Positions 18,776 through 57,303 of a stretch of DNA of 64,000 nucleotides are shown here, piece after piece. Origin of the DNA: Rotaria socialis (taxonomy: Eukaryota). The first letter of the stretch is position 1. Each line of letters starts with the position of its first letter. The DNA is taken from contig CAJNYD010000002.1 of the NCBI GenBank assembly GCA_905331295.1, forward strand, positions 1 through 64,000. The letters are read 5' to 3'. The position numbers and the translations under genes were made by a program. A model generated the notes under the pieces. That model did not search any database. It saw nothing but the letters and a program-made list of their open reading frames with translations, and was not told the DNA's origin.

Positions 18776-18782
18776 AACAGCA

Positions 18783-21513: not shown

Positions 21514-21777
21514 TTAAGCTATTATCTCACTTTTTACTACATTGCGATTCGGAATAAAGAAGTAGAACATCCACATTATTAGTACAAGCAAAAATGAAAT
21601 CGAAACAAAATGCACCCTAATCAAGTCGAATCGGTGTTGTTCTACAATCTGATTGACCGCTGGATCACGTATACTCGCAAAGTTGTAGCTGACACCATTG
21701 GAAATGACTGCTACGTTTTGATTACCAGATATTCCAATTTTGTTGCTATATTGAGACTGGGCGCACAAGTTACCCAT
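21514..21777 (-). CDS. 87-aa single-pass membrane protein with N-terminal MG (possible myristoylation), FAST-like
   Basis: MGNLCAQSQYSNKIGISGNQNVAVIS..., hydrophobic segment FVSISFLLVLIMWMFYFFI near the C-terminus. Confidence 0.55.
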   Translation of the reverse strand: MGNLCAQSQYSNKIGISGNQNVAVISNGVSYNFASIRDPAVNQIVEQHRFDLIRVHFVSISFLLVLIMWMFYFFIPNRNVVKSEIIA

Positions 21778-21889
21778 AATAAAGATGATTTATAAATATA
21801 ATATATCTATGTGTATGTGAACAGAAATTGTAAATGACTTCGATAATAAATCGGAGTTTCTTCTAGAAAAAGCACAAAAATAAAATCAG

Positions 21890-22195
21890 CAGCGTCTAAG
21901 GACTGAGAAATAGGAATTCCTAATGTGCCGAGGAATTGTCAGTGTCGCTGTGATAATTCCTAGAGGAAATGGAAATCAACTATCGGTTCCCTCACAGTTT
22001 CACCATTCACGAAAGTCGCGATATTGCTGTTTTAAAAATAATTTTTGCATGAAATTCTTGATTCTCACAATTTTGCGAGTGAATATGCGTGTAAGAACAA
22101 AAATTATCGTGTATATTCCATATTCTTACCTTTAGTATGCAAGGAACTGTAGGGGTACTGATGAGGAATTCCTAATCCTCAGTCCTTGGACACTC
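21890..22195. mobile_element. ~305-bp MITE
   Basis: Imperfect TIRs AGCGTCTAAGGACTGAGAAATAGGAATTCCT / AGGAATTCCTAATCCTCAGTCCTTGGACACT. Confidence 0.7.
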
Positions 22196-22485
22196 CTCGT
22201 TATTTATTGTGATGTACAGAGGAGAGCACTCTGGACATAACAGACAATTATTATAAAGAGGGCATTGAAGAATAATGAGTCATTATAAGAAAGAAGGTAT
22301 TATTAATGAATTTAAAACGAGTACATTGAATGAGGAAAGTAAAACAAAGCAAAAAAACAGAAGTTGTAACTAAATAAGTTTTTTCATATGATGAAACGTA
22401 AAGGTAACATATAGAGAGATACTTATATAAGTTGAACTAGTATTATCAGTACTCTACTTGAATGGTGCTCTTGGCCGAGCTGTCA

Positions 22486-22803
22486 TCAAATAAAATCAAG
22501 TGTAGTCAGAAGCTTCGTCTTGGGATTGATCGTAACGGTGAAGTCTTCTGGTTCATCTTGATGTATAATTACTGCTTTCATATCATTGTTATCGTGACTT
22601 GAAGTTTGATTATGTTGCTTAGCGTCTTCCCCACGATACATGGAACATGTGACCCAAATGCCGGCCAGCAGACAAAGTAAAATTAATGATGATAGTACAA
22701 TAATAATACCTAGTAGTTCTTGAGAACTGAATGCCAATCCGCATTTTTTTTCCATTATTTGTGATGGTAGTGTCATCCATTCATTAGTGTACTTTGGATT
22801 CAT
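22486..22803 (-). CDS. 105-aa single-pass membrane protein
   Basis: Hydrophobic helix LLGIIIVLSSLILLCLLAGIWVTC, short N-terminal region, polar tail. Confidence 0.55.
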   Translation of the reverse strand: MNPKYTNEWMTLPSQIMEKKCGLAFSSQELLGIIIVLSSLILLCLLAGIWVTCSMYRGEDAKQHNQTSSHDNNDMKAVIIHQDEPEDFTVTINPKTKLLTTLDFI

Positions 22804-23457
22804 TTCGCAAAACGGATTATGTGAATAGATATTCGAAAGTAAATTCAGTCTATCTAGAAAAAGAAATCGATTGTAATGAAGGTTTTAGAATGTTAGTGTT
22901 TAGTAGCGTTTTAAGAACCAGATGATGTGGTATGTGGTATGATAAGTTATCATAGTACTTTGATAGTATTTTATTTTCACTCATAAACTATATACATATC
23001 TATCTTTACAGTTTAGTTTTTCTCTAATTATCTAGCAATGAGTGTTATGGTGAATCGTAGTTGGGATGACTTGCTGATCATTTGATAGGGATGTATATTA
23101 GGTTGCTTCAAATAGTAACCTAATATTTTTCAATGGTATTACAAATCTACAATAGAACAAAAGATCAAGATGATGCTGATAACAGAAAAAGATGTATTTC
23201 CACAACGAATTTATTTTAGTTTTGAAGATTTGTCACCCTGTTACATCACACATGCACACACACACATACACACACACACTAAATTTATAACACATCCAAA
23301 ATACGCATTGGTAGAGTTCTCGAGCTGTNGTATAAATGTCATTTTTTTTGGCGACTATTTACAATATTCTCCAGTCTTGGATAAACCTCTTTATCATAGC
23401 GGTACCTCACACACACACACACACGAAATCGAAATGATAGTGAAACATGAATGTTTT

Positions 23458-26400
23458 TTAAGTAATTGAAGCAAAACTCTTTCGAGTAACTTTTGCGATC
23501 TTGTCTAATCTATTAAGTTCTTCCAGTTGTGCTGCTGTTGGTTTCACTTGCAGAGATGACAGTTCGAAAGAACGCACAATCAGGAGATCATCTAGTCGTT
23601 TAACACGAGATAATGGAACGTAAACAGATGCCACTTCAACTGGTCCGGAAGGCATAACAAGATCAACAATAATTTTACCCAAGGTTTGACCTTGACTTTT
23701 ATGCGTCGTCATACTGTAGGCGGGTATCAACGGAAGTGCTTTACGCTTGATGGAAATCTTCGTCAACTTTTTGCCCTTCTTTGCAGCTTTTGAAATAGTT
23801 TCGGTAAGAAGCTCCTTAATGTCAAAGAGAAAAGTTTGCTCACTAACTGAGATTGGAATTATTTTGGTTTGAAGATCTCTGAGACCAGAATCAAGTTTAC
23901 AGCTCGAGAACTCTACCAATGCGTATTTTGGATGTGTTATAAATTTAGTGTGCTTTGGAAAAACGGTTTCGTCGAATTGAATATCGTCACAAACTTCATC
24001 GTATACGAGCTGACGAAATATTCCACGTGTACCATTGGAAAGTCCTAGTTCGGTCGCAATGTTTTCCGTTAGTAAAACAGGCATACCTGGCACAAGTGGT
24101 AAGTAACCAGGAAGATGCTCTGTCTTATTATCCGGTAATTCGAGAATCGCTTTGCGTAATCTTACATCGCTAATGGCTGCATTTCTAACATAATCTTGAG
24201 CAACACAAATGATCGGTCTGAGTTTCATCTCCGTAGCTTTATTAAGTACCGCTCTGTTGTTTATTTGAGTTCGAAGTGTATTGCGAAAAACCAAGATAGG
24301 AGCCTATCATGAAACATTTGATTAAATATTGAAAAAACCTGATCGAACATACTTCGTTCCAGGGGTCCTGTTGTAAATATGTCTTCAAATTTGGAGTTCC
24401 GATTACTCGTGTACAAAGAAGTTCATAGTCTTCGATTGTTGATTTTCCATCTCTTAATCTATTCAATAGTTCCAAATATCTTGTATCTTCAGTACGCATC
24501 TGTTGCTCCAATTGGACAACACAATTTATTTGTGATATCACTTTTTGTGCACACTGCATTTCTATTTGACGTTCTGTATATTGTTGTGTTGAGGTACCGC
24601 TATGATAAAGAGGTTTATCCAAGACTGGAGAATATTGTAAATAGTCGCCAAAAAAAATGACATTTATACCACCAAAAGGAACATCCGTATTGATATGCTT
24701 CGCCGTTTTCACTATGCGATTGAGCCGAGCTAATAGACTAAGTCCTAACATACTCATCTCATCAATTATCAAGTACTTCACGTGACGCCACTCATTTTCC
24801 AACTTTGTGTCGCCTGGTCTAAATGTTCTTACTTGTCGTTTTTTAGAATTTTTTCGACTTTCGCCTAAAAATGAATGGATTGTTAGGCCATCAATCTCTG
24901 CTGCTGCTATAGATGTTGGTGCCAATTTTCGCAACATTTTCCTCCTCATAGTAGCTTGGAAATAATTCGTGATTGCACGAATTAATTGAGATTTTCCAGT
25001 GCCACCACAACCAGGTACACACATCAGTAGCTGGTTTTCATTAGTGCCTAAATCATTATGGTTATTCTTTTCTTTTTGATAGAAATTAGAAAAATTTACC
25101 AGTGGGAAGTTGGCTGTCACCGTCTAGGTGGCTAGTAATAATCATGAAAGCAAACTTCTGCTCAGTATTGAGTGTAAACTTTCTGATAATATCTGATTTA
25201 GTCGGTAAGGTAACTGAGATAGTTGCAGTTACAGCTGGTACTACGGTAGTATTTACTTTACTTGGACTTGTAGGTATTTCAGAAGTTATAACTTCAACTT
25301 GCATCTCATCATCTCGCACCTCCAAAGAATCTTCTCCTGAAATTAAATAATTTCTTGCTTGATCTCTTCTCATTTCAATATCGCGCTTCCATTCTTTTAC
25401 CATAGCTGTATGATGCGAATGAGCTACGGTAAACGTATTGAAATCGGCTACGATGTGGCAGTCATTTATGTTCAACATATTTTTGTAATCTAAATATAGT
25501 TTATTATTACTAGCACGAAATAAAATTAAACTTACCATTTAGTGATCCAAACCGCTTTGTTTTATCGATCGCCTCCAATGCGTCGAATAGGTAACGCTGC
25601 TCAGGGCTGCTGAGAGACGCAGAGTAAGCTTTAGTGGTGGTCTCATCTACCAACGAGAGCATTTGTAAGAGTTCTTCCGGATTGTCTTCAGGATTGTTTT
25701 CATCATCTTCATAACAGTTAGGAATCAGAATAGGATCTATTTTTATATCAGCTTGAGCTTCTGCAATAACTCGATGAAGATGTTCGTCACGATCATTCTT
25801 ACATTCGTGGAGGAGTTGGATATTTTCAATAATCTTCAGAGCATCAGCAGCGATCTCAAATTTTCGAACCTCCAACGCCTGAGACCATGTCTGTTGTAAT
25901 GCACAAAGGTCATTCACTGATCTCCATGGTACGAATAAAGTTAGCAATGCACGACAATAACGTTCGCGTGTATCTTCTCGCTCTCGACGTGGTATTTGAG
26001 GACCTAAAAGAACTGGCACAACTGGATTGGCTCGTTTGATGAGAACATGTGATGATGATTGTGGATGTAGGTTTGCAAAAGTATGTCTCTCATTCATCTT
26101 TGTTCCTTCTGTATTTAGTCGTTGACCTTCTGATGCCGTGGTATTCTTCAGTAAACGTCTGTCGGATTTGTCGATTAATTTTTTGTGAAAGAGACTAACA
26201 AATTCATATAGGCATAACGCAGTTAGATCTTTCGATCGATGCTGATAGTCTAGACGAGTGTTCACCATAACGTAACTCTGACCGTTAGTCGTTTGTGTTG
26301 GTTCTAAAAGAAATTGCTCTTCAGTTTCTTTAGCTTCTTCTTCTCGGTCCTCATAGAAAAGCGTTGACATATCTACAAAAATCGTTTATTTAACATCTGT

Positions 26401-29400
26401 ATACTCATTTTAATATTCTTTACCACCGGTTGCCTCTTGATCAATAGTTTTTTCACTTAAACGTGCTTTCATTAGTTCTGCTTGTAGATAGTGTTCGATG
26501 GAGATAAGAAAAAGGTTCTTAAATGTATGAGTAGTGTAATGGTCCCCATAGTTCATTAGATATGATGCCACTTGAACACCAGAAACTTCTTGATGCGAAG
26601 CAATCATATTATAGCATCTTAGAACAAGTTTGCGCGATTTTTCAATTGCATTCTCGTTTTCGCTGACCGGTTGTTGCTGCTCGATGGATTTAATACCTTT
26701 TTGTGCAAGTGCAAACATATCATAGAAAGCCAGACTTGATTTTGTGACGTAATCAGTTATATAATAGACTAGAGCTTTAGCATCGTTACCAGTCCAAATA
26801 AATTTAATATCCATATTGGATCGACAAGCACTTATGAGCCATTCATTGAAGTTATTAATCCACGGATGAGATCGACGCATAGTTATCTGACCTGTAAAGG
26901 CGTCAATGCTGGAATTTTTTACTAGGACACGTGGCATTCGCATTCGACAGCTTTTCAATCCATCTGGCTTCTCTTTTGAATATTTATAGCAAGTTGCAGA
27001 GTGTTTATGAATATTGGATGTTTCAACGATGCGTACGATATCCTTCCGAAAGATGCGTCGAAAATCAACATGGCTGGGATTGGGTGTTGGAAGACAGGCT
27101 GGAGCAACTTCTTTTTCTACTTGCTCAGTTGCGTCTAAATTGAAGACACATATCAAACCAAGAATATACTAAAAACAAGTAGCTCACGAATGGATCGCTC
27201 ATTGTCATGGTCTACATTTGTTTCATTGTCATCTTCTTCTTTAAAAAAAAAGCGAACATAAAAGAGTAAATAAAATCAAGTGATTAAGGTTATTAAGAAT
27301 CTATAGAGCTTGTCCGACTAACTCTGCTACCGGACAAGCTCTATAATTTAAAGTAAACGAATCATATATTCGTCAGAAAGTTTCTTGAAAACTCATCTTT
27401 AAACTGTTGGCTCGGAAAGACACTTCGTGGATATGAAATATCCTGCATTATAGAGATACGAATATTTTTAGATTGGAACGGAGCTTTGAATATTATTTCG
27501 AAATTGGTCTAAATCTTCTTTAATAATATCTTCTAAATATTGAACTAGTTTTTGACGAAAATCTTCGTTTTGAATTTGTTGCTTCAGCTGTGTGGGCGTG
27601 AATTCATGATTTAGCCAAATAAGAAGATGCAAGTGAAGTGAACCTCTGCCTTGATTCTCGACAGTACCAAAGTATGCTTTTGTAGGACCAAGTACACCAC
27701 CAAGAACTAAAGATTTCAAGATAGTTTTTATCAAACAATTAAAGAATTTTGCAGTAGCAACTGGATGAGTTGCAATTGTTTTGGCACGTTCATAACTTGT
27801 TCCCAAGGCTTCTGGTAGAATCTTATCAAGGTCTAAGTCGACGCCTGCGAAATAAAGTGCCACCGGGCTATGTATGTCAGCTGGATTGATCGTTACAAAA
27901 AGACTAGGGAGGCCAAGATAAAAGCATAAAGAATGAATTTTTGTACGAAGAGCCGATCGCGAATGAGATGAACCCATAACATGACCACCAACAATTTTTA
28001 TATGCTTCATGAGTGTATTTATTCTTTGATCGGCAACTTTTGAATACGTTCCTTTTGAAATATTCACAAGAGCTGTTGCTATGTCTGCAGAACTCAATGA
28101 TTCTAGGAGTTGCGCAGATTGCTGAAAATATGGTCTTGATGTCATTAAATGTGCATGAAAACATGCAGTACGGCGTTGTAGAATATTGAAAACGACAAAA
28201 ATGAATGAGTAGTGTTCTTCAAAACGGTGATCCCCGAATGAAAGAAGATATCGGACATGCTCGCGAAAGTCGATTTTGACTGGTCGAGAGCAATCTTCAA
28301 TTGCACCACAACCATATGGGAAAAGCGTAGGAAATATGCCCAATAATAGATTAGGGTTAGAGTACTCATTGGCCGGTCTGTTACCACGAGGAATCGTGTA
28401 TACTGTATCTTCTTGTGCGTTTCTCTCAGAGTCTGGTTCACGTGTTTTTTCTACAATTTGTACCTTCATTCTTTCTAGTAGATGCTCAGTCATGTCATCA
28501 GACGAGATATTGGTACCATTAACATCTAAAACGGCACTAAAACAGAAGCAATCCCATTCAAAGATATCAATATGCTTATTTTAAAATTTCACCTCGGAAT
28601 CAGTGGTACTGCTGTTGTGTCGCTCGAGTCAGATACATTTAGTAAAGGATCAGGAATATAACTTGCCCGTTCATTTTCACTAGCTTCAACATTCGTTGAG
28701 ATTTGCATTGTTGCCAACAAACATTCTGGTACATCATCATCAGGTAATTTATCAATTATTGATCGATTAATTACTATACTCCGATAGAGTGGGTTGTTTT
28801 GCTTAAGCCATTGGAGGGCACCCAATACTTTGTTTTTTCGAACAGTTAAGATATTTTTTAGTTGGTTTCTTTCTGGGGTGCGACACCCGACAAAAATGAT
28901 CTTTAGAGAATCACAGAGGTCGTCTAGAGCCAATGGTAAGGTAGTAGCAATATTAACAACATCTTGAGGAAAGCTTATGCAATTGCCTTTAATAGCTGAT
29001 TGAGCTGTGGCGGTTGAATGAAAAGATGAACGCAATTTTACAATGCAGCTATTGTGTCGATAAACAGCGATGAGTCTTTGCTCAGGAATAGTCAGTCCCT
29101 GTAGTTCTTTCGGCACATCTCCCATCCATACCTTGTTGGCAGCCGAAAACTTTGGTATTTTGTCCTTCGTCAAAGAAGACCAGCATGGCGTGCAAATGTC
29201 GCAGTGTATTAAAGAGCGTTTCCTTTTGTCGAAACTACGCTGTAGCCCTCATTCATAGAAAACTACCCCATCGATACATGTGAATGAAAAGGTTTTCATT
29301 GATGATACCTTGTCACTATCTGTAACGAAAATGTGTTACTTTGTATGCTATCTTTAAAAAAAGACAATATTAACCTGTGTCATCTCCAACCGACGATGAA

Positions 29401-31557
29401 TCAGGATCATTATTCACATTATACATTTCATTTGAATACAAATTCTTTATTCGCTGTGTATCAGGGATTACATTACAAAGATCTTCATGCGTCCTAAGTA
29501 ATTCAATCGATGGAATTTTATTTACTGGTACATGTCGCAGATCACGCTTGTAGCAACGAACATTACATATTCCACATACACCTTCGGCCAGAGAACTCAT
29601 AGACATCTGTTGAATGAATTTTTTCAAACAGTTAGTTTTGCATTCCATATCAATAGCCTTAGGCCATTCAACTTTGATATTTTTATATACTCCTGTTTTA
29701 CTCACTCTTTGTTTGTTTTTCAAAATTTTCGAAAGATGCCTACTCCTGCGAGCCGCTTCTCGTTGCTGTTCAGCTTCTTCTAATGTATAGGCAGCTCGCC
29801 TAGCAGCACTTCTCTTGCGTGCTAGTATTCGTTCTTCTTCAGCTACTCTCGGAGACACAGTCGCTCGTGAGACCAAAGTTCTCTCAGCAGCCAGTTTTCG
29901 GTATTGTTCGACTTCTTTCGGTGTAAGCGTAGCTCGTGTGGTAGCATTTCTCGCACGAGTAGTTTTTCGCTCTTGTTGGATTTCTTCTGATGTCATGATA
30001 GCTCTTCTAGCTGCACTTCGTTCGCGCGCAAGTGTCCGTTGTCTATCTGCTTCTTCTGGTGTCATGGCAGCTCTTCTAGCTGCACTTCGTTCGCGCGCAA
30101 GTGTCCGTTGTCTATCTGCTTCTTCTGATGTCATGGTAGCTCTTCTAGCTGCACTTCGTTCGCGCGCAAGTGTCCGCTGTCTATCTGCTTCTTCTTGTGT
30201 GAGAGCAGCTCGTGTGGTAGCATTTCTCTCACGAGTAATTGCTCGTTGTTGTTGGATTTCTTTTGATGCCATAGTAGCTCTTCTAGCTGCACTTCTTTGA
30301 CGAGCATGTATCCGTTGTTGTTCTACTGCTTCTTGTGTAGCTTCTGCACGCTTAGCCGCCATCCTTTGACGGGCTAGTATTTGTTGATTATCAACATTTG
30401 TTATTTCGGTGTTCGTAATATTTTCTGCTGAATATTGCCTACGTTTTGTTCGAGGGGTCAATGATGTTTCACTCGTTGCTGGAAAAACCGTTTCGGATGT
30501 TTGCAATAGCTGCTGTTCGTCGTCGGCCAGATTGAATCCTGGAATACGAACTGTAGTTACAATGTTATTTTTCGTTGTTGATTTAGTTGGTGTCTGAGAG
30601 GAAAAAAAAGACTTTTCTATACAACTTGCGCAGTAAAAGCTAGAACTTACAATATCCGAAGAAATTACTTCAGACTGCGATGGATTGTTTTGAAATTCAA
30701 CATTATCTGATGAAAACAATAATGGTACAAAGTGATTAGGTGTCCAATTGCCAGAATTGCGATTGCGTGCCTGTACTTCGTTTCGTGTGTGTGTCAAAAA
30801 TATAAAAATTGTATTGGACGATAGATTGGATTGAGCGTATTCAAAAGTACTATTCATGATATGAAGGTCTTCTCGATAGTCAATCCTTGGGTATATACTC
30901 CGTATGTTGCATTTGAGAACATTGCTCAATCCTACAATTTCATAAAGTTCCGAGAAAGAAAAATTACGTGCGATATTTTTCATAGCTTCACCGAGTGGTC
31001 CAATAATATGTGAATAACGATTGCTATAAAAAAATTCGTTCTTTACGAGTTCAATCAAAGTTCGCACTAGAAAATTTCAATAAAGAATTAAAATATTAGC
31101 CTCTTAAATAATCACCTCTGAGTTCACTAGTTGTTAGAAGTTTAGTTTCGTTCAAACATGTAACTGAGTTATAGAGACAATTACCATCAGCGATGACATT
31201 AGTTGGAACCATCTTTTGTACATCCAAAGCTGCTTTTTGAAGATATACTTTTGCTTCTTGATCTATTTTATGAACATTAGGATCGAAATGAGTGATATTT
31301 GTGAATTGCATTGGTGCCAAAAGCCACTCCAGCTAAATTGTCTAGATAGAACTTGAATTAGAATATATTATTATGAAATTTACAGTTTCAATCTCTTGAG
31401 AAATAATCTTGATTTGATCATAGTAATCGATAGCGGTGGATACTTCGCCAAATAATTTTAGAAGAGTCTCGAACATTGTAGCTCGATCTATTTTCCGACA
31501 GGATAAACAGCAGGCTACTGTGGCCATTTTGCCGCAAAATAAGCACTGTTTGTTCAT
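23458..31557 (-). CDS. Helentron/Helitron2 RepHel protein: OTU-like domain, 21-aa repeats, HUH/Y2 Rep, PIF1 helicase (multi-exon)
   Basis: OTU: VIADGNCLYNS...NHFVPL. Rep: FVTINPAD, GTVENQGRGSLHLHLLIW, YITDYVTK. PIF1/SF1: GCGGTGKS, IIDEMSM, FGDYLQYSPV, QQMR, YSMTTHKSQGQT, YVPLSRV. ORFs are separated by short GT-AG introns. Confidence 0.92.
29930..30310 (-). repeat. 63-bp coding tandem repeat in RepHel
   Basis: EADRQRTLARERSAARRA(T/A)MT(S/P)E in three near-perfect copies plus degenerate flanking copies. Confidence 0.9.
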
Positions 31558-31907
31558 TTCAGCTTTATAAAGTTCAGAAATAGCAGATGATAATGTTTTT
31601 CGATTTGTAGAAATTGCAGATTATCGATCGCGAAAGAAATATATTAAACGGGTGAAAATAATCTAGAAATAAATTATTTATAACAGATTACAAACTGCAT
31701 AGTTTTTACAGATATAATATAAAATCAACTAGACAGTTCAGGCAATCTGAAATAACTCTGAGTATTTATTTCTCGTATAAATTGCAAATACAATACTAAA
31801 GTGAAAATATTGAACAAATTCAAAGACGCAGATAAATAAAATCGTAAACAGAGTTCCCTGGAATCTATGACTGTGTGGTGTTTTGCCATTAGTTCAACCG
31901 ATCATAA

Positions 31908-32910: not shown

Positions 32911-33442
32911 TTTTCTATGAGTGAAAATAAAAATTTACTATAATTATATCAAGAAAATGCTTACGTGTGAATCTACTGTTCACTTTAGTTTTGTCATAAC
33001 TTCGATAATCTATTTCAGTTTGAAAAGTTTTCGACTGATAATGATCCATATCATAAAATATTAAAAATAGACAGGAGGCTGCATATCGAAACTGTAAATC
33101 AACAGAATTATCTGAAAACAAGAAAGCTTATTAATGCACAGAAAATTAGGAATCAGGTAATCGTGATTGTCCTAGTAATGTCAAATAGTTAATGTGGATA
33201 CCTAGATATGTTTCCAAATATGAATGATCGACTTGATTAAGTTATAGGAAGATTTCCAAGACTCTAAAAAATTATTGTGATAAATGGATTTATTTCAAGT
33301 AGTGTAATTATGTATTTGGATTAATTTATGTAGCGTTACAACAAAATCTGTTGTTTTTTAAAGTAGAGCCATTCACAATAGAAACATTTTTCTTTAAATT
33401 AATTTATAAACACAAGATACACTAAAAATGATTACAAGAAGT

Positions 33443-33649
33443 CTATTTAAATACGAGAAAACATGAGACTACAGCGCATGCTAAGCAGACCAAATTGTGT
33501 GGATGGTGATTGAAAAAACACTCGCTATGTTCAAGATGACCACAAGCATAGTGAACTGTGGGCTCATCAGCCTCATAGTCTGCATTAAGATCACAAACAG
33601 TACAGATAGGTATAGATAACTTTGCCATTTGAAATGTTTGAGTAAACAT
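33443..33649 (-). CDS. Small RING-H2 finger protein
   Basis: C-x2-C-x16-C-x-H-x2-H-x2-C-x10-C-x2-C spacing (CTVC...CGHLEHSEC...CLAC). Confidence 0.7.
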   Translation of the reverse strand: MFTQTFQMAKLSIPICTVCDLNADYEADEPTVHYACGHLEHSECFFNHHPHNLVCLACAVVSCFLVFK

Positions 33650-38927: not shown

Positions 38928-39772
38928 TTAATTCTCTTTTTCTTCCTTGATTACATCTTTTAAGTATTTAATAACATCATTTAAATCATTGAAACGTTCA
39001 CGATGATTGAAGTTATTTCCATATGAATTTTGAGCTGCCCCTTCTGGTACACTATATGATTTAAACCAATTGTTAATAAATTGTAATGGTGTTAAATCGA
39101 ATCTATTGATCCCGTGATTATTGTATCCATATGGTGGTGGCAACACTGGTAGTGATGTTTGCGAGTCGATTCTATTGGTCTCGTGGTTATTGTATCCATA
39201 TGGTGGTGGCAACACTGGCAGTGATGTTTGCGAATCGATTCTGTTGGGTCCATAATTAACACTATGGTGTTGGTGATTGAGGAGAATCCATTTCATTAAT
39301 GTCGACATCATATTGATTTATTTCCTGATCAAGTTTGCTTTCATGATCAAGATCATCTTGATTTGTTGAATTAGAGCTGGATGTTGAGCTGGTTTCTTCC
39401 TTTTCGGTTTCCGCTTGATTGATTTGTGCTTGACCACAATGCGCACACATGGGAAATCGATTGTGCTCCCAACTAATGTCCGCTACCGGCACTGGTGGAA
39501 TCATTTGCGGTATTATTTGTATAATAATCTGAGGAACTGGCAAAGCAATGGATGCCGTTGTTGGGATCTATAAAAAGAAGTTATGCTTTAATAAAAAAAA
39601 CTGTAATTTCGATACCTGACTCATATGAATTGTATTGTGAGACATTTTTATCGTTGTCGTTTCGTAGTTTTTATCTAAAATTATAGATGGGAAATCGGTC
39701 CTGAAGAAGTTTATGAGGCACATCCACAAATATGGTAAAATTAGTCAGAAAATTTACATGCGCTTGGCATTT
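38928..39772 (-). pseudogene. Pro-rich gene with a duplicated PPPY motif, apparently frameshifted
   Basis: Two overlapping ORFs in different frames (39262-39543 and 38928-39311), a 69-bp duplication encoding NRIDSQTSLPVLPPPYGYNNH, and small upstream exon-like segments. Confidence 0.4.
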
Positions 39773-40299
39773 TCGATCACTAGATGACTGGGAAATCAGA
39801 TACAGAATAATAAACACAACGCTAATTTTTTTGCCCTTATATATGGCTCAGATGCCTAACGGTTAAAAAGTAAAACAAAAGCTTTTCTTCTTTGTCATAA
39901 TTATCAATTTCTTCCGTTTCTCTAGCTTATCACTTGATATTCTGTAAACAAACTTGTCAAGTGAAACAGGAAGCCAAGAGAATTATTAGCTAATTGTAAT
40001 TATTCAAAATGACATATCTCAAAATTTGAAACAATCCAGCTGCTTTTGCTTATTATCTTGACGAGGAGAAAATCAGTTAGAGCTTTACTGGTTACTAATC
40101 TTTGTTTGTCTTTCAATTTCAAAACAAAACGTTAAATGGATTCATTTTAGTTGATGTTTTTGTGTTTCATGTGTGGTACTTATTCATTTATAATGAACAG
40201 TTCTATTGAAAATGAGAAAAAGAGTCATTGAGTTATCAATAAAGAAGATCATGAGCAATGAATCATTTTCATTGATGTAAAAACAGAAAGTCTGTTATT

Positions 40300-40700
40300 T
40301 CATGACATCTATTTGGATGGATAGTAATAGACCTACTGGCCCTTTGTTTTCCTTTTTCAACAATATAATATTAATTTCGATGCTTTCTTTTCTCTTTATA
40401 TCAATGGTTATATAAAAAATAAATAAAAAGGTTAAGTTCTTCTAATTTTGAACTTAAGCCTAAGAAAACATCGACATATATGTTGTAGTGGAAATTAAAA
40501 TTCAGTAGAATTTAAAATCCTACTAGTAGAAATTGAAATTTTAGTTTCTACTATAGGTAAAATTCAGTAGAATTTCAATTTCTACTAGTAGAATTTTAAA
40601 TTCTACTGAATTTTAATTTCTACTGCGACATATATATTGTTCTAAAACGAAAAGAAAAGAGCAGTAGGTCTACTGCTATCCATTCAAATAAATGTCATGA
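40300..40700. mobile_element. Old MITE (~40-bp TIRs) containing a nested MITE
   Basis: TCATGACATCTATTTGGATGGATAGTAATAGACCTACTG pairs with CAGTAGGTCTACTGCTATCCATTCAAATAAATGTCATGA. Confidence 0.65.
40481..40630. mobile_element. 150-bp palindromic MITE in a TA run
   Basis: Near-perfect fold-back TGTTGTAGTGGAAATTAAAATTCAGTAGAA / TTCTACTGAATTTTAATTTCTACTGCGACA, flanked by TATA. Confidence 0.8.
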
Positions 40701-41287
40701 TATTAAAACAACTCACTCGCTTAATTTGATATTCACTAAGTAGGAAAAAGATATTATAGAAATAAAAATGGTAGGAAATCAACATGAACGTAATTGATTG
40801 TCTTGATATTATCTATTATGATAAAATTATGGCAAGTATTCATTGATCATCATCTATTACATTTGTATACGCATAACGACCATTCAAAAAAAGAAAGACG
40901 ATTCATCGATAGAATGAAAAGAATAAAAATTGGTGACAACGTCTGTTCAAAAAGACATTCATTTAGTAAAACATTAAAAAAAATTCGTTAAAACAAAACA
41001 AAAATAACTAGCTAAAAAAATGTCTAAAAGTTTTTGTACAGAGTAGCTATCCTTCGCTACAAATGTATCATTCATCCACCACCATGTGTTTAGTGTATCG
41101 ATCCGTTCAAATACTGTAAGAAGAAAAAGACAAATAATTTATTCTGGTAAGCAGGAAAATGGAAATAAGCGTACTTTCAAAAATTTTAATGTTTTGTGCC
41201 ATTATTTGTTCTGAAAGACGCCGAATGAATATTTTGAAAAATTTCTAAATAAACAAATAAAACAGTCTAGATCAATTTGATTGTAAC

Positions 41288-41632
41288 CTAATTGCATACC
41301 ACATCGAGAAATCGATCGATGTATTTCCCAAATGCAGCATTAACAAGATCAATGAATTGTTTTGGTGGAAATGGTCGAAATGGAAGTTCAGATTCAATAG
41401 AATTCGGCGGACGATATCTAGCAAGTGAAATATTCTTTATTGATTTTGCTTTTCGAAGCGCAAAATATGTTTCTTCCTCTTTTCGAAAAAAAAGGTAGAA
41501 AATTGATTTTCCAGTTTTTGATGTAACGCGGCGAAACTTAAAATATTTTAATTGCTGATGGAGTATGCCAGACATATCTTTATTTTTTATTTCATTATCA
41601 GTTCGATTATTTAAAACTAGTCTGCATTCCAT
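41288..41632 (-). CDS. Small basic protein, possible RRM-like fold
   Basis: Pattern RLVLNN...KSIFYLFFRKEEETYFALRK recalls RNP1 followed by helix 2. Weak evidence. Confidence 0.35.
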   Translation of the reverse strand: MECRLVLNNRTDNEIKNKDMSGILHQQLKYFKFRRVTSKTGKSIFYLFFRKEEETYFALRKAKSIKNISLARYRPPNSIESELPFRPFPPKQFIDLVNAAFGKYIDRFLDVVCN

Positions 41633-44600
41633 AGTTGATTTTACTAAAATTATAGAGAAGTGTCATACACAAATATATAAGCTAGTTGAGTTCTTCTTAC
41701 GAATGACTTTAAGAACTAAACCATATATTATCACACTAATGATACAAAGGAAAAGTATACATAAAAGATAAATCACAATGAGTGTTCGATAAAATATTTC
41801 TGAAGAAACATTCAGAAAAAGACAGAAATATGAATCCTTAGAACACCTTATAATACTATACAAAAATATTCCACTGCATGAAGAATTAATTAATACTTTT
41901 AGCCTTTCTATGTTAATAGCAAATATAAATATTATACGAATAGTTCATTACATATATAGATGCTTTAGCAAGATTCTAGTAAATAGAAGTAATAGATCGC
42001 TACATTTTTTTTCTTTGTACATTAGTATCTGTCTTTGAACTTAATCAGCGAAGAAAAAATTGTATTAGTTGTACAATATTACTTAATCACTTTTTATAAA
42101 CAGTCCTCACAGTAGGTGGTCTGCGTTTCCTCCTTTTCTCCGGCAGATTTTATTCTGATATAACATGCTCTCTTTCAACATAATTAATTGAATTTTTTTT
42201 CTATTTTTTTTCTATGCAATAGTGGCATCAGTATCTGGTATTTTTCTAAAATTTTTCTCGATAGAGGACTAGAAACCTAGTACTGTATCACCTTAGGAGT
42301 AAGTCTACCTTATTGTAAGTTTAATTTCATTAGTACATTTAAATATCATCAAATACGATCAATAGTGCTAGTGTAGTTATCAGTTTTTTTTTCATATAGT
42401 ATGCACTGGTTCCATATTTTTACATTATTGATGTTTGATTTCAAAGCTTTTATTTCTTTCTTTCATTTTGACAATTCATTTCCTGATCTAATTTAACGCT
42501 CACGATGTAACACTTCTTATTCATCGAGAATCAGTTTCAATCATATTAGATGAAATTCAATTCGATCTATTTAACTCTTGCCTTTTAGAGCTAATGTCAT
42601 GTGTCTTTCCTGGTTTGCTTAAATTTTTTAGTCATCTTTAGGTAGACCCATAATAATTCCACTCAATTGTTTTATTCTACTCAGTTTAGTATGTCGTTTT
42701 TTCGAATATTAACTGTAGTTCAATGAAGCGAGAGCACACGAGTTGAGGCATTCGCTTTGAAACATCATATACAGATGAAACATATGATAGTGATTTCTCT
42801 ACGGTCTAAACACAAGGTTCAATTATGTTTCATTTCTCCATAAGAAAAGTAATAGTAACGTCACACTATTTCTACTAAAAATGACTTTCTATTTCTATCA
42901 TTTTGACTGCACACGATAAATCGATACATGAAAAATCTCGAAACATGATTTTTACGTATGAGTCAAAATAAAAACATAAAATGATAGTGTTTATAGAAGA
43001 ATAATTAGTTTTTTTTTCTAACATCAAGTGTAAAAGATATTTATAAAACAGTGCCAAAACGGCTCGGTGTCCACAACGGATCGGTTTACATTTTATTCAA
43101 AGTTATACATACTTGAGATTATCTTAAATGCTACTTGTTATGGTATGAGTGCAATTGCAAAATAAAACCTTAAATAAAAATGAGCAAGTCTTATAGTACA
43201 TATAACTAATGCCAATACATACTAAATATGTTTGACTATGATGACGTGCTTTAATAATTATGATGATAAAAGTAGAATGTAAATGTAATATACGAAGTTA
43301 TTAACTCGAAGTGAATTTGTTGAACGAAACTGAAATTACTGTAGGAATCGATCTCTATTTATAGTCCACCTTTTGTTTATCTTTGTGATGAATTTTCTTG
43401 AAGTCCTATTGGACATTTACTATTCATCTAAGAGAAATTCTGACGAATCATACAGTTATTTCTGCTTTTCATCTTAGCTCTTTGAAGTTTTAGAATAACA
43501 AATCAACAAGATCCTATCAATAAGTTTATCTTGTAAACAAATAAAAAGCCATTTTCAGCATCAGATCTCTATAGTCTTTCATTTCGATTGATTTTATTCT
43601 TCGAATTAAGAGTTTGCTGTCAGAAGAAATTCGTAAAAATGACATGCATCAAGCTTGGAATATCTATATTATTGTTTGAGTGAAATATTTAACTTTGAAT
43701 CATCGCTTGATATTTGATACATATGAAACTAAAACAAAGTAATCCTACTAATATTCTGTCTATGAATACACACTATAATAAATATATAAACCTATTTTAA
43801 TTTGTTTATAATATTACGGCCGTTTTGAAAAGAAATTCTTTATATAAAAACAGAAACTTCATATGATAACATGTATCTTTAAATGCCACATGGATACACC
43901 TTTCGTTCACTTCAAAGATGAAGTCTGATAATGTTTAGATGCGAAAAATATTCTGATTTTGTGCTCTTTTTACGTGGATAAGTAGACAAGCTTATATCAA
44001 CTTCTTCATTAACAATTTTATGATAAACATTGAGATGATACAAAAATTCTTTTAGAAAAATCTACATACATCATCACGAAAATCAATCTAGTATTGAAAT
44101 CATCTAAAACTGTGATGTTTTCTTATTCAATGATTATTTTTGTGTTGAAAAACCTCTTTAAATTCAAGATAAAACTGATGTGAATATTTTCATTATTCAA
44201 TGCTGATTGATCAATTTACTTATTGTTCTATATGATAAAACTTTGATTTTTATGAAATGTTTTTCAATATTTAAGAAAGCTACTAATGTGCATAACACTC
44301 TGTAATTGACCATAAGTTAGAACGATGAGTTTTTAAATACTAATAAAAAAAATGGTCAAATAATTAGCTTGAACGTTGATTAAATAGATAGCCAAGCTTT
44401 GGTAGTGAGACATCGAATAGATTTCAATGACAGACTCCATGCTTTCATATAATACCATGCTTATCTCAAACATCATAGAAAAAAACATCAATTTGTGCGA
44501 GCACAAACAACAAAAGATGTTAATCACAATTAGTTTATTGTTGCTGATTGCATTTCGATCAGTATTCTTAATGCTTGCCATATCAACTCTGATACAATAT

Positions 44601-47371
44601 ATTATTGTGTTCATAGTACTTGACATTTTCTTTTATATTTTATAAGATCTATCGAAATAAATATGATGTAAACATTTTTATAATGACGAGAATCGATTTC
44701 ACAAAAGAAAATGATCGAATATCATTAAAAATATATTTTCTAATACAAACATGTATATATATAATCTCTATTTGTTGATTTTTCTATTCGATATGTAAGA
44801 AAAAAATTCAGTCTAGCTATATCATGATGCAAGATTATATATTTTTCTGGAAAATTCACAATATTAATTTTGTTTTATCGCGGATTACTTTATAGAATGA
44901 AATATAATTGTATTGAATCGATGTTCATTCAAGCTTCACAAAAAAAATTCATTGAAAACGTATCAGCTATAAAAGCACGTGTATATAAATATTTTATTTG
45001 TTTGAAAATGGATATCTGATACAACAATCGTTGTTTCCGTTATCAATTATAAGAGTAACATATGATGATACAATCATCATGTATTGTTGAAAAAGCACAG
45101 ATACTCAAACATGTTCATCGTAATGTAATCGGTTGTTTTATTTTGCTTATCAAGTGTCACGTCAAATGACATGTATGTATAAGAATACTTTCAAACCTAA
45201 CGATTCAAAATTTACTTAATAATGAGTCAGATCATGCCGATATTATAAATTGATGTTTTTGAAAAAGAAAAGAATAACTAATTAAATAATTGTAAACCTA
45301 TCAACTCATTTTTTAAATGCATCACTTTATAAATAGAAGTCAATGTGAAATATTTATTTATCCATGTATTTGACTTGTGCATTTCAGAAGAAAAAAAAAT
45401 TGAATGATTATGTGCGAAACTCTCACATGTTTTACTTTTCATTCAAATGTGATATCATTTTATTCAGCTATATATGAGAGTAGACGAAATTATGTGCACG
45501 AATGAATAAAGCGTTTTACAAAAAATAAAATTCCTATTTATTCAATAAATAGCTCTTCGATATTTTTCTAACAAAGTACAGCATCACATGAAATGAGCTA
45601 TAATATAATCTACACCTTTGATTCGAACCTTTAACTGATAGATAAAGATGATAACAGTATTTTCTGAAGATTTGTTAATTATGTAGTGATATGGATGTTA
45701 AACTTATTTAGTTGTTCTTTTCTATACTGTATCGTCGATTGAAATAATAAATGAGCTTCAACCTATGTGCCTGCAATTTCTACGGTGATGACGATAAGAT
45801 TATATATTATCATTGAAAAATCAACAACTAATAAAGTCATCATCAATCTCTTTTTTTCCCGATTAGTTACTGAATGAATTCAAATAAATAGTGAAAATCT
45901 TAGTGCATAAGTACCTCAAGTAGTCTCTAATTCATGAAACGGAAATCGAAAAATACTAAAAGTGAATTAATTATGTTAGATATGTCTATCTGTACTTCTT
46001 GTTAATTGATCTGATGTGTGATATTTTAAGTTGATATAATAATCTCTGTATATAAGAACGTATAAACACTGACAATATAAAGAGCATTAGGAATTAATTA
46101 TGTCAAAATATTGAAGTGCTATATTGACTATCGTGCAACTGTTCTCTTGTCATTTGAGATACTATGTTAAAAGAAATGTATATGAGAACGTGACATAATC
46201 TTTCAATTTTAATACGAATTCTAGAAAAGAAAAGAGATCAGATTTTCTTTGAAATTTGTCAGCGTGGTGGGGACACGAAAGGTCTTTTTTTCGATATTAC
46301 TGTTATATTATACGATAGCTTAAGTTGAAATAGTGATTTTCTTTTGAAAAACGTATTCGAAGCTCTTAAAATAATCATGATCAAGTGGTCGAACGTTGTC
46401 GAATTCATCCCATAAATATGAGTTTTTTTCTTCAGTGAACTGTTAAATTAAATGACCGTGTACATAAAATACTCCAGTGTAAATGTATTTGACTTCTGCA
46501 CTTCAAGAGAAACACTAATAAAAAAAAGCATGATTGAAAATCAAGGAATAACAGATGAAATGTATAATTATGTTATTTTAAAGAGTTGGAATTCGCTAAT
46601 TAAGTTGTCTTTGAACATAGAAAAAAATATAATTTCTTTCAATCAATCAAATATTTCGAATAAGTCAGCGATATTTTTTTTCTTTTGAATCAAGCCATAT
46701 AACGCAAAATAGAAATGGAAATATTCTTGGATTGACCGATGAAATTTTTTTTATTCTTGAAGGAAAATCATATATCACCGTTAACGATTCATCAGCTGTG
46801 TAGAAATCTGAATGTTCTTTTTTATTTTAAATTTATGTCATACTTCTGAGACTCGTGAAAGATTATCTTAAGTTTATAGGTTGTTTGTAGACACATTTCT
46901 CGTCTTTTTTTGTTGACTAAGGTGTTCCAAGGTTTGATATTTTTGTGATACTTGATGATGCCGCTCATTAGTGTACAGAATTTCAAAGCGTTTTATGTGA
47001 AATATTTGAAGAAAAGCATATCTCCCATCGTAAATTTTTACTATAAATATTTTTAACTTGTATCACTTCATCTTCCGAGATTTTCCCAACGATAGTATCC
47101 GAAGACTGACGAAAGATGAATAACATACACCGTTGATATTTTCAACATGCTTAAACTAAAATTTCAAGTGGTACCGCTGCCAAAACATAAAAAGAGATTA
47201 TAAATATATGTTGGAGTCATGTTTGCCTTTTATTATGAGTTGAAAAAAAACAGACATTGATATTATCATCCACATATTGCTCCCTATAAATACGTGTTTC
47301 AAAATCAGTTGTGCCACATTTTCTCATCGACTATTACGATCATACACACTTGCTTATTTTTCCAATTTAAC

Positions 47372-48823
47372 ATGACACCTGCCGTGACTCACTTGGCAAA
47401 TCTTAGAAGATTGAAACGTGGTGGCTTCAGTATTGGTGGCTCTGAGAATAATCCCACAATCACGGGAACGCAAAATGTAGTTAGTATTGGCACGGATTCA
47501 TCGTCGTCAGGACAAGAAACGTTAATTCGGAAGGCTGGACATCAAATAGGCAGAGTCTTTGAAGGTGGTGCTGATCTAGTGACTGCTCCGGTGAGATGGC
47601 TTACTCATATGCAAGAAAATTGGTAAAAAAAATTTTTTTACTTATACTTAAAATGTATACCGATCCGTTATGGACACTTAGCCGTTGTGGCACTCTATAT
47701 TGGTCAGTAAAATATACTTGACTACTGCTGAAGTAATAGAAACGAGAGATGCACAATTATGTATATGCGATATAACTTCCCAATGAGAAAATTATCCATT
47801 TCTTACTAAGCTTTATTATCCTTCTTATTTAAACAGTGAGCATCCTTATTATCAATAGCTCTTAAGAATGATTTTAATTAAAATATCTGTTATGTTTTTC
47901 TCTGTAAACGACCAGTAAGAAAATGAGAGCAGAAGAAAAATGATGCATTGATTTTGACGAATAGCTAATACATTTGCCGAACTGTATGTATATATATACG
48001 AGAGCGAAAGCAGAAGGTGAACTAGAGTGAGAGAAAATGATTATCTGTTCCACTAACAATTCTTTTGAGTAGTAATAAAAAAGTGTGAAAGAAGAAATTT
48101 CGTACAATCTTTCGTTCAAAATAGCTTTACTATTTATTATGGATTATACCAGACAAAAATTTGCGCAGGATCGTTTACACGATGTTAAAATAAAACATAC
48201 GAGTCGACTTATTAACGATACTCACTATAATAAACTAGAAGCAAATCAATAGAAACACGATTATCAAAACAGAATGAGAGAATCTTTTAAAATTTATTGT
48301 TTTACGATCCATATAGACAAATGGCAGTATAATTTCATACATAGACAGAGAGAGAGAAAGAGAAACTATCTTAATTGCATATATCGGTGCGCGTGTAACA
48401 TTAAATAAAAACACTGTAGACGATTATAAACATGATCATTTTAAGAGAAAGACACAACTTTCTCATAGCTTATTTTACCTCCATGAATCATTTCTTTGAA
48501 AAAGAAATCTTTATTTAGTCGAGCTTTTGCAAAACTAATACGTCATAGGTTAAAGCTTTTAACGTGTGATTGTTTGCTTTTAATATGAGTTTTTTTTTCT
48601 CAAAATTCGCGTTTTTCTTAGGTTAACATATCTTGTCTGCATAACGATACTATTAGTTTGTTCGTTGATCATATACTACTGCATTCGTCGAAAAATATCA
48701 TCATTCTTGTCTGGTAATGCAACACGTGTAATGCCACGATTAGCCGATATGGTATCCCTCGAAGAACGAGGAAATAAAACATTTCGTCCTGCTCTCAAAC
48801 CTGATGCATGGAACTTTTTTTGA
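47372..48823 (+). CDS. Two-exon 150-aa single-pass membrane protein, FAST/env-like
   Basis: Exons 47372-47622 and 48622-48823 join in frame: ...RRLKRGGFSIGG...ITGTQNVVSI...GHQIGRVFEGGADLVTAPVRWLTHMQENW|LTYLVCITILLVCSLIIYYCIRRK...WNFF*. TATAAA at ~47285. Confidence 0.65.
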
Positions 48824-49593
48824 TTGATTTCAATGCAGAACACTGGGGGCCGTTATAAAACAATTGATTCTTCTTTTATGTTAACGTTTTTTTGTGTTGT
48901 TTGATTTTTCGTAGTATCACACATTTTACTCATTTTAATCTCTTTCAAGCGAATCCATGGTAACAGATCCATCTTTTTCTGTTTCTCTGAACGCACAATA
49001 ATATCTATCTACTGCATATTTCACATATACAATAAAACATCATCATCAGTCTCAACTTTAAGTAAATATTGCTATTGACAATGTGTATATATCTATTATA
49101 AAAAGAAATTGATAATGAAAAAACAGTTATCCTCAGGTATTTTTATGAGTTCATTTAATAGATTTACTCCTTACTGCCTCACAGTGATAGATAATGATAG
49201 AATTTCATGGTAATTTTTATTTTCATCGCAAAATTTTGCTTTATATTCAATGAATCTCAGTCATTTTTTGTTTTCGATGATGCTCACGCTGTCAACACGA
49301 ATGTCTAATGAGCATAGATCAGCTATAGAATTTGTCTTCGTCAAGAATCATCGCATATTCTCATTCTTTCTCGTTTTGCTCTTCTTCAAAGTATATGATC
49401 AAGATGGATGTACATTGAGAAGGTCAAACGTAGAACAAAAAATATTGACCTATGAGCGAAGAAGTTATTTCAATAACAATGAGCGGTCAATAGATAATAA
49501 TAAAATAGAAGCATATACTTGGGGCGTAGACGGTGGATAGAAGCAGTTGAGATAAAAAGAAAAGGAAAGCACATCACCTTTTTGTTCTTGTAG

Positions 49594-49869
49594 ATGTATA
49601 TTAACTGTGCTCGACACCAAGTCTCAATTCATGGGAACAATAATAAGGTCAATATCCATAGCCCACAAGATGATCTTAAAACAAATTGTAATTGGTTTCT
49701 GGACGATGAATCCACGAACATCATCATGATTTCTATTATTGTCTTTGTTTTGCTGATCTGTATTATTTGTTATTGTTGCTGTTGTTGTCCTCATCATCTT
49801 CATGTTTACCATAACTCAAAGCTTTCTCCGAAAGCAACCGTTAAAACATTTGAAAATGAAAATTCTTAA
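49594..49869 (+). CDS. 91-aa single-pass membrane protein with juxtamembrane poly-Cys
   Basis: VSIHGNNNKVNI motif, then TM IIMISIIVFVLLICIICY and CCCCC. The ATG follows an AG acceptor, so an upstream exon is possible. Confidence 0.6.
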   Translation: MYINCARHQVSIHGNNNKVNIHSPQDDLKTNCNWFLDDESTNIIMISIIVFVLLICIICYCCCCCPHHLHVYHNSKLSPKATVKTFENENS

Positions 49870-57295: not shown

Positions 57296-57303
57296 AAGAA
57301 GCT

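What the first reader, a model, noticed from the sequence alone, without database searches (positions are those of the whole stretch)
21514..49869. Family of small single-pass membrane proteins resembling FAST cell-cell fusogens inside the Helentron
Seen: three dispersed ORFs share an N-terminal motif, IGISGNQNVAVI (21514-21777), PTITGTQNVVSI (47372-48823) and VSIHGNNNKVNI (49594-49869). Each has no signal peptide and a single TM. One starts MGN, one has RRK after the TM, and one has juxtamembrane poly-Cys. A fourth small TM protein lies at 22486-22803. Known: reovirus and rotavirus B FAST proteins are ~95-200-aa single-pass proteins with short, often myristoylated ectodomains, Cys palmitoylation and a polybasic juxtamembrane stretch. 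Inference: a rolling-circle element may encode fusogens for cell-to-cell spread. No single ORF shows every FAST hallmark.
Basis: partly seen in the sequence, partly recalled or inferred. Interest (0 to 1): 0.85.

Follow-up and report, generated by a model that had tools for sequence, protein, structure and literature searches.

The report
Envelope-like membrane proteins in giant Helitron
A 34-kb rolling-circle transposon of an asexual bdelloid rotifer carries four small membrane-protein genes, one of them from an undescribed rotifer-wide family built like a miniature viral envelope protein, which would, if it fuses membranes as predicted, give a DNA transposon a way to move between cells or animals.

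Summary
The ORFs are real. All four lie between the termini of a 33.7-kb Helitron2-type (HLE2) element (19434-53128) in a Rotaria genome; it has no endonuclease domain, so it is not a Helentron proper. C (49594) is a spliced-leader trans-spliced, polyadenylated mRNA. B (47372-48823, 150 aa) belongs to a bdelloid family of at least 51 proteins with a conserved basic cleavage site, Gly/Asn repeats, a Trp-rich amphipathic stem, one TM and a basic patch; the mature ectodomain is 68-74 aa whether made by cleavage, signal peptide or a bare Met. One relative is identical over 103 aa in five species of two genera, suggesting recent horizontal spread (contamination not excluded). A, C and D are not detectable members of B's family; C shares the short motif significantly, A weakly. 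B fails FAST membership (ectodomain too long, cleavage site, signal peptides in relatives) and looks more like a stem-only viral envelope protein. Against: no fusion data, no genomic context for distant relatives, and the only B RNA seen skips exon 1 and would lack the TM. Fusogen-like role about 35%.

The parts
19434..53128 (-). Giant HLE2 (Helitron2-type) element, ~33.7 kb, containing all four TM genes
   Evidence: 16-bp asymmetric terminal inverted repeat at both ends, 5' and 3' hairpins; 16 DNA contigs of one run begin at 19434 with unlike flanks; RepHel with DUF6570. Flanks do not rejoin as an empty site, so movement as one unit is inferred
19434..19477 (-). 3' terminus: ATIR 19462-19477, hairpin 19443-19458
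   Evidence: same layout with compensatory stem changes in the small relative at 8570-9202
53108..53128 (-). 5' terminus: ATIR folding into a terminal hairpin; interrupts a Penelope-like RT fragment
23458..31620 (-). Intron-containing RepHel (OTU-like by eye, DUF6570, Helitron_like_N, PIF1); in-frame stop at 29249-29251 in this copy; no endonuclease
21514..21777 (-). ORF A, 87 aa, TM 55-75, MGNLCA start, 12-aa tail; acceptor at ~21863 (predicted trans-splice site)
   Evidence: no homologue found
22486..22803 (-). ORF D, 105 aa, TM 31-51, no shared motif; acceptor at ~22854
   Evidence: 95% identical variants in R. magnacalcarata
47372..47622 (+). Gene B exon 1: RLKR cleavage site (13-16), Gly/Asn repeats (19-40), amphipathic Trp-rich stem (49-84); TATA-like box at 47285 and initiator-like TCAGTT upstream
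47649..47694 (+). Conserved intronic double-hairpin element just after B's donor site; second copy at 43050-43095 (-)
   Evidence: its translation appears in 6 of 8 relatives with intron read-through
48622..48823 (+). Gene B exon 2: TM 85-105, YC, RRK, amphipathic tail; its acceptor also takes the spliced leader
49594..49965 (+). Gene C, 91 aa (CDS to 49869), TM 43-63, poly-Cys; spliced leader joined directly before the ATG, poly(A) after 49965
   Evidence: RNA contig of run X14, 374 nt, 1 mismatch; leader identity from PMC3795323
31908..41662 (-). Other cargo: F-box/LRR-like, RING-like, two paralogous UIM-like ORFs, nucleotidyltransferase-like multi-exon gene, PPPY-repeat ORF, basic ORF
   Evidence: (RING E=0.004); the other labels are recalled motif resemblances, not database hits

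Best explanation
A giant Helitron2-type transposon of a bdelloid rotifer carries four small single-pass membrane-protein genes, and gene B likely encodes a stem-only, envelope-like membrane-fusion protein that would help the element's DNA pass between cells. Shown: the element's ends, the ORFs, trans-spliced expression of C, and B's family-wide anatomy. Inferred: B sits N-out; a furin-type protease cuts after KR (or, in relatives, a signal peptide plus RFRR, or a bare Met or myristoylated Gly, gives the same start), exposing a short hydrophobic F/I-N-F-G-G segment on a ~70-aa ectodomain; the Gly/Asn repeats cluster molecules as beta-arches; the amphipathic Trp-rich stem, TM, Cys and basic patch perturb the bilayer, as the membrane-proximal parts of viral envelope proteins do. 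C and A, which share only the beta-arch motif, are predicted accessory partners. Trans-splicing onto exon 2 would switch the TM form off. No capsid gene was seen, so the cargo would be the circular DNA intermediate moving through cytoplasmic bridges or vesicles.
For: Family of 51 proteins, every named one bdelloid, 21-56% identical yet with near-invariant W76/W84, G, P, N. Arg at the cleavage position in 34 of 41 rows that cover it, dibasic 28, R-x-K/R-R 15. Mature ectodomain 68-74 aa across three ways of making the N-terminus. Signal peptides in relatives fix the ectodomain as luminal; one (P0034) nests inside the no-signal group. Charge +4 after the TM, hydrophobic moment 0.83 (stem) and 0.74 (tail). 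An A. vaga member starts MGxxxS. Atlas neighbours of two divergent members are viral fusion-glycoprotein clusters, scores 0.76-0.84, below the tool's 0.9 bar. One relative is identical over 103 aa in five species of Adineta and Rotaria (one change in a sixth), multi-copy, one copy flanked by a direct repeat: behaviour of a mobile gene. Precedent: FAST-like sORF2 of MDG1 retrotransposons (PMC11952523) and small env-like ORF3s of bdelloid LTR elements (PMC5408684).
Against: No fusion data. No significant Pfam, PDB or fold match; models are low-confidence (pLDDT 60, 57). The only B RNA contig joins the spliced leader to exon 2; its first long ORF is 30 aa without the TM. Link of distant relatives to Helitrons is not shown; B, D and F-box are accession neighbours in R. 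magnacalcarata but that may be the same insertion. One relative is fused in a gene model to a choline-kinase-like gene. Helitrons have no known particle; this copy's RepHel has a stop. The cross-species identity could be cross-contamination; the Adineta copies are on 1-3 kb contigs. Dibasic site + amphipathic helix + TM are generic features, as PMC5408684 warns.
Confidence: 0.35

Rival explanations
1. Captured host-type cargo: B is a processed cell-surface or membrane-active host protein (adhesion, antimicrobial-peptide-like or peptide-hormone-like precursor) that rides on Helitrons; A, C, D are unrelated small membrane genes.
For: Introns, TATA/initiator promoter and signal peptides are host-like; family found only in bdelloids; Helitrons capture host genes (PMC6431247 passages); amphipathic helix-AP hinge-helix recalls cecropin-type peptides (recalled).
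Against: Many divergent and degenerate paralogues per genome, and one variant unchanged across two genera, fit mobile rather than vertically inherited genes; whole-gene capture is called exceptionally rare in PMC6431247.
Confidence: 0.27
2. Immune or cell-death decoys: the shared Gly/Asn motif is a RHIM-like amyloid arch and the membrane proteins interfere with host defence signalling, together with the element's RING-, F-box-, OTU- and UIM-like cargo.
For: G-x-x-N-x-apolar pattern repeated 2-3 times in a predicted disordered region matches the Gly turn plus Asn-x-apolar described for RHIM (PMC4262963 passages); C shares it significantly; ubiquitin-related cargo.
Against: The Q of the RHIM core is absent (N/K instead); no RHIM Pfam hit; signal-peptide relatives put the motif outside the cytosol.
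Confidence: 0.18
3. True FAST proteins: A, B, C are one family of reovirus-type cell-cell fusogens.
For: Size, single TM, polybasic patch and Cys in B, poly-Cys in C, MG start in A, MGxxxS in an A. vaga relative.
Against: Ectodomains 54, 84 and 42 aa versus about 30 (PMC11952523); furin site and signal peptides; A, C, D lack a polybasic patch; A has a 12-aa tail; no shared homology beyond the motif.
Confidence: 0.07
4. Element-encoded membrane proteins with a non-fusion housekeeping role for the transposon (vesicle loading or budding, exclusion of related elements, anchoring replication).
For: PPPY-repeat ORF and UIM-like cargo; weak sub-threshold hits of A, B and C to baculovirus Orf78 (E 0.065-0.16), probably TM composition.
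Against: Does not explain the conserved cleavage site and constant mature ectodomain length.
Confidence: 0.13

Closest known systems
FAST proteins of reoviruses/rotaviruses and FAST-like sORF2 of MDG1 LTR retrotransposons (PMC11952523, PMC12945298; passages read)
   Same: Small, single-pass, predicted N-out, juxtamembrane Cys and basic patch, amphipathic tail (B); carried by a mobile element without a canonical env; one relative has MGxxxS.
   Different: Ectodomain more than twice as long, conserved basic cleavage site, signal peptides in part of the family, intron and trans-splicing; host element is a capsid-less rolling-circle DNA transposon.
Env-like ORF3s of bdelloid LTR retrotransposons Vesta4, Vesta6c, TelKA (PMC5408684, section 3.2 read)
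   Same: Same host group; small TM proteins with RXXR; Vesta6c described as a gp41-like remnant.
   Different: Those are 210-230 aa (or ~600 aa) with two TMs or coiled coils and Cys sets, in LTR elements; B is 140-150 aa with no ectodomain Cys. Direct sequence comparison was not possible.
Membrane-proximal stem + TM + tail of viral fusion glycoproteins (gp41, rhabdovirus G, gB, hantavirus Gc)
   Same: Trp-rich amphipathic stem before the TM, cleavage exposing a hydrophobic N-terminus; nearest Atlas clusters.
   Different: No fusion core domain, no significant alignment to any of them.
HLE2 / Helitron2 / Helentron elements (PMC3627910, PMC11417382; passages read)
   Same: ATIRs, 5' and 3' hairpins, DUF6570, T-rich target.
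   Different: 33.7 kb with about ten apparently whole cargo genes on both strands; no endonuclease; membrane-protein cargo not mentioned in the passages read.
RHIM / amyloid signalling motifs (PMC4262963; passages read)
   Same: Gly turn followed by Asn-x-apolar, tandem copies, disordered context.
   Different: No Q core; likely extracellular.

Membership tests
FAST proteins | Small (about 60-200 aa), single TM | tested here: met
   87, 150, 91, 105 aa; one TM each by hydropathy
FAST proteins | Ectodomain about 30 aa | tested here: not met
   A 54, B 84 (68 after KR), C 42; only D is 30 (norm from PMC11952523)
FAST proteins | N-out topology without signal peptide or proteolytic activation | tested here: not met
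   B charge bias N-out, but conserved basic site (34 of 41) and signal peptides in relatives; absence of these in FAST is recalled
FAST proteins | N-myristoylation (MGxxxS/T) or palmitoylated dicysteine | tested here: inconclusive
   A fails MGxxxS/T but fits a looser recalled pattern; C has poly-Cys; B has one conserved YC; relative P0082 fits MGxxxS
FAST proteins | Juxtamembrane polybasic patch and amphipathic endodomain helix | tested here: inconclusive
   Met in B (3 K/R in 10, moment 0.74); not in A (2, 0.24), C (0, 0.41), D (1, 0.34)
FAST proteins | Cell-cell fusion when expressed | not testable with these tools
   needs cell assay
Viral envelope fusion protein (cleaved TM subunit) | Furin-type site exposing a hydrophobic N-terminus | tested here: met
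   dibasic 28 of 41, R-x-K/R-R 15 of 41, followed by F/I-N-F-G-G-like segment; cleavage itself is predicted
Viral envelope fusion protein (cleaved TM subunit) | Sequence or fold homology to a known fusion protein | tested here: inconclusive
   Atlas 0.76-0.84 leads (46, 94); Baculo_gp64 E=0.15 for one member (104); nothing significant in Pfam, PDB, BFVD (50, 51, 65, 100, 115)
Viral envelope fusion protein (cleaved TM subunit) | Trimeric coiled-coil core | not tested
HLE2 / Helitron2 | RepHel with DUF6570 | tested here: met
   marker per PMC11417382
HLE2 / Helitron2 | Short ATIRs, 5' terminal hairpin, 3' ATIR 20-30 bp from end before a hairpin | tested here: met
   definition from PMC3627910
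HLE2 / Helitron2 | T|T insertion with contiguous empty site | tested here: inconclusive
   T at both ends, but right flank is mid-RT and left flank a different repeat; no genome held
Helentron sensu stricto | Apurinic endonuclease domain on RepHel | tested here: not met
   helicase ends at 23458; no EN hit in the ORFs scanned
RHIM | (I/V)Q(I/V/L)G core | tested here: not met
   family has F/I-N/K-F/I-G; no RHIM Pfam hit

The most novel reading that the evidence does not exclude
Bdelloid giant HLE2 elements are capsid-less infectious DNA transposons: a protease-activated minimal fusogen family (B) with motif-sharing partners moves their circular DNA between cells and between animals, explaining a variant that is identical across Adineta and Rotaria species and how transposons spread in long-term asexual hosts.
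Probability: 0.2. Interest if true: 0.92.

Novelty: new variant of a known kind. Interest (0 to 1): 0.62.

Why it matters
Envelope-like or FAST-like genes are known from LTR retrotransposons and viruses; my searches found none reported for Helitrons. How transposons persist and spread in asexual bdelloids is open (PMC7943196 invokes horizontal transfer even for elements without adaptations for it). A small, expressible family with a defined cleavage site makes an element-encoded transmission route directly testable, and a ~70-aa cleavage-activated fusogen would be a new minimal design. Even if not fusogenic, a 34-kb HLE2 with trans-spliced whole-gene cargo and an undescribed bdelloid membrane-protein family are new descriptions.

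Tried and rejected
No genome held. Word searches for A and C found no candidates at near length; longer or shorter forms were not searched. No RNA holder of the whole stretch was listed; RNA contigs did not cover A, D or B exon 1: no evidence either way. Summed DNA contig depth rises towards both element ends but is not a copy number and was not relied on. Genomic context for relatives: metagenome scan with the helicase gave one 1.3-kb relative, L001, plus three distant helicases; six viral-contig scans were blank; the genome-contig scan reported one relative but no locus. A. vaga FUN_ gene numbers in a supplement do not match the I4U23 tags (cut file); another supplement held nothing. C and A versus the tails of P0073/P0076: not significant. 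The TM-like frame at 41666-41944 has no ATG and was not pursued. Rfam found nothing; RNA folding of the intronic element is not better than shuffles (z -1.2 and +1.0). No stop-free RepHel splice path under five settings. dN/dS could not be computed (no DNA of relatives). Rows dropped from family counts: P0042 (repeat false hit), P0046 (48-aa fragment), P0065 (alternative model of B). Earlier-finding look-ups returned nothing on this topic.
Full report
Setting. The window is from a bdelloid rotifer of the genus Rotaria: cluster members of its proteins are named R. socialis and R. magnacalcarata. No whole genome was held. I call the ORFs A (21514-21777), D (22486-22803), B (47372-48823) and C (49594-49869).

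The observation. A, C and D are intronless ORFs of 87, 91 and 105 aa. B needs one 999-nt GT-AG intron and gives 150 aa; the same protein is a public gene prediction, P0015. Each has one TM. Such ORFs are not expected by chance: 3 observed versus 0.033 per shuffle, none of 300 shuffles with two. A, C and D each have a strong acceptor just upstream with no AUG between (3.2% of 1444 ATGs). For C this acceptor is used: an RNA contig of run X14 carries the rotifer spliced leader directly before the ATG and poly(A) after 49965 (leader consensus in the table of PMC3795323). A and D are therefore predicted to be trans-spliced as well; RNA contigs did not cover them, which says nothing either way.

The element. 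RepHel fragments match DUF6570, Helitron_like_N and PIF1; DUF6570 marks HLE2 (PMC11417382 passages). A 16-bp inverted repeat occurs at 19462 and 53127; the 5' copy folds into a terminal hairpin and the 3' copy precedes a hairpin about 28 bp from the end, the Helitron2 layout of PMC3627910 (passages). A 630-bp relative at 8570-9202 has the same ends with compensatory stem changes, and 16 contigs of DNA run X6 start at 19434 with unlike flanks. So all four genes lie in a ~33.7-kb HLE2. No endonuclease was found, so 'Helentron' is not strictly right. This copy's RepHel has an in-frame stop at 29249-29251 and no stop-free splice path was found under five settings. The two flanks do not rejoin as an empty site, so that the whole 33.7 kb moved as one unit is inferred.

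B's family. phmmer with exon 1 gave 35 hits at E<=0.001 and a profile search 23; after dropping P0042, P0046 and P0065, 51 proteins remain. All that carry a species name are bdelloid. They share: Arg at the cleavage position (34 of 41 rows that cover it; dibasic 28; R-x-K/R-R 15); F/I-N-F-G-G..N-P-x-I-x-G-x-x-N-x-V repeats; an amphipathic helix pair ending W-L-x-H-M-x-x-N-W; a TM, Y-C and a basic patch in the 9 TM-bearing members measured (basic count 3-4 in 8, 1 in P0082). Three subtypes make the N-terminus differently: no signal peptide plus KR (window B), signal peptide plus RFRR, or an intronless form starting M-S-F-K-I-G without a basic site; an A. vaga member starts MGxxxS. The mature ectodomain is 68-74 aa in all measured cases, which argues that the site is a real processing site and the new N-terminus matters. 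The intron position is shared by two subtypes and is short (22 codons) in one relative. A tree on 71 columns keeps the Met-start group together (100/100) and nests a signal-peptide member inside the no-signal group (weakly resolved), so B's lack of a signal peptide rests on annotation only. AlphaFold gives a disordered 1-50, helix 51-82 and TM helix, at low confidence; fold, PDB and Pfam searches are blank. Atlas neighbours of two divergent members are clusters of viral fusion glycoprotein fragments at 0.76-0.84, below the tool's 0.9 bar and thus leads only.

Are A, C, D the same family? No by HMM: among 1932 window ORFs, C scores E 0.8-3 and A and D are not separated from background. The motif alone, tested with a PSSM from 50 relatives, ranks C first in the window (none as high in 25 shuffles; Asn-richness may help it) and gives A a modest score. 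A and C had no near-length relatives by word search. D has 95%-identical variants in R. magnacalcarata with accessions next to the F-box-like cargo and B, possibly the same insertion.

Mobility. One signal-peptide member is identical over 103 aa in 8 of 10 records compared, from A. steineri, A. ricciae, R. socialis, R. sordida and R. sp. Silwood1; the 2 R. magnacalcarata records differ by one residue. It is multi-copy, on contigs of 0.2-123 kb, and one record has a direct repeat on both sides. That suggests recent horizontal spread, but cross-contamination is not excluded and its carrier element is unknown. All attempts to get DNA context for distant relatives failed, so linkage of the family to Helitrons is shown for this locus only.

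A result against the simple story. The one RNA contig over B joins the spliced leader to exon 2; its first ATGs give a 4-aa and a 30-aa peptide without the TM. Contigs drop rare forms, so cis-splicing is not excluded. A 46-bp double hairpin follows B's donor and shows up in 6 of 8 relatives with enough intron read-through; it may regulate this choice (inference; folding energy is not above shuffles).

Mechanism. I favour a protease-activated, stem-only envelope-like protein that remodels or fuses membranes so that element DNA can pass between cells (0.35). Shown are the genes, the ends, C's expression and B's conserved anatomy; topology, cleavage, oligomerisation, fusion and any role in transmission are inferred. 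Rivals: captured host-type protein (0.27), RHIM-like immune decoy (0.18), other element housekeeping (0.13), true FAST family (0.07).

Comparison with what is known. FAST and FAST-like proteins have ectodomains of about 30 aa, myristoylation or dicysteine palmitoylation and a polybasic patch (PMC11952523 and PMC12945298, passages); B works like them at best but fails membership. Bdelloid LTR elements carry other small env-like ORFs (PMC5408684, passages and section 3.2). Searches for Helitron plus envelope, fusogen or TM terms returned no such report; PMC6431247 (passages) mentions TM ORFs in Terminons, whose primary paper I could not read, so overlap with those ORFs or with Repbase entries is possible. 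Also consulted by passages only: PMC7943196, PMC4262963, PMC1925144, PMC8494291, PMC13524379 (118, reference list hits only); supplements searched for PMC10809525 and PMC12220480 (67, cut file). One earlier scan note concerned a hAT nested in a related Helitron and does not bear on this.

Verdict. Real genes in a giant HLE2, one of an undescribed and apparently mobile bdelloid family with envelope-like anatomy; not a FAST family; function untested. Novelty: new variant of a known kind; interest 0.62.

Noticed in passing
window 8570-9202 (-): About 630-bp non-autonomous HLE2 with the same ATIRs and a 3' hairpin showing compensatory stem changes.
   Followed up: partly
window 47649-47694 (+) and 43050-43095 (-): 46-bp double-hairpin element just downstream of a splice-donor-like site, conserved in introns of B relatives in several species; the 43-kb copy follows a TATA/initiator-like promoter at 43363. 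Possible splicing regulator; B's donor itself can pair with the U-run after it.
   Followed up: partly
proteins P0073, P0076, P0084-P0091, P0096: A signal-peptide member of the B family is identical over 103 aa in A. steineri, A. ricciae, R. socialis, R. sordida and R. sp. Silwood1; P0096 shows a 33-aa direct repeat on both sides (tandem or circular unit).
   Followed up: partly
window 35591-37874 (-): Multi-exon gene with nucleotidyltransferase-like motifs (recalled; no Pfam hit), interrupted by a high-copy MITE at 36898-37642.
   Followed up: no
window 33965-34222 and 34807-35088 (-): Two paralogous ORFs ending in a UIM-like helix (BLAST E 2e-6 to each other), next to RING-like and F-box/LRR-like genes: a ubiquitin-related cargo cluster.
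   Followed up: partly
window 38928-39311 (-): 127-aa ORF with two tandem PPPY motifs, like viral late domains (recalled); annotated in Rotaria.
   Followed up: no
window 23275-23409: Inverted patchwork of two RepHel fragments (from 23899-23952 and 24590-24672) with CA repeats right after the RepHel stop, suggesting template switching.
   Followed up: no
window 21877-22208: High-copy MITE between ORFs A and D.
   Followed up: no
window 18770-19400, 56025-57362: Repeats with hammerhead-ribozyme-like cores (recalled motif; Rfam gathering search negative) flanking Penelope-like fragments.
   Followed up: no
window 57540-62388: DDE_Tnp_4 transposon with 528-bp terminal inverted repeats, 98% complementary.
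   Followed up: no
A. vaga I4U23_005680 and I4U23_005710: Two divergent B-family subtypes lie 30 locus tags apart on one chromosome.
   Followed up: partly
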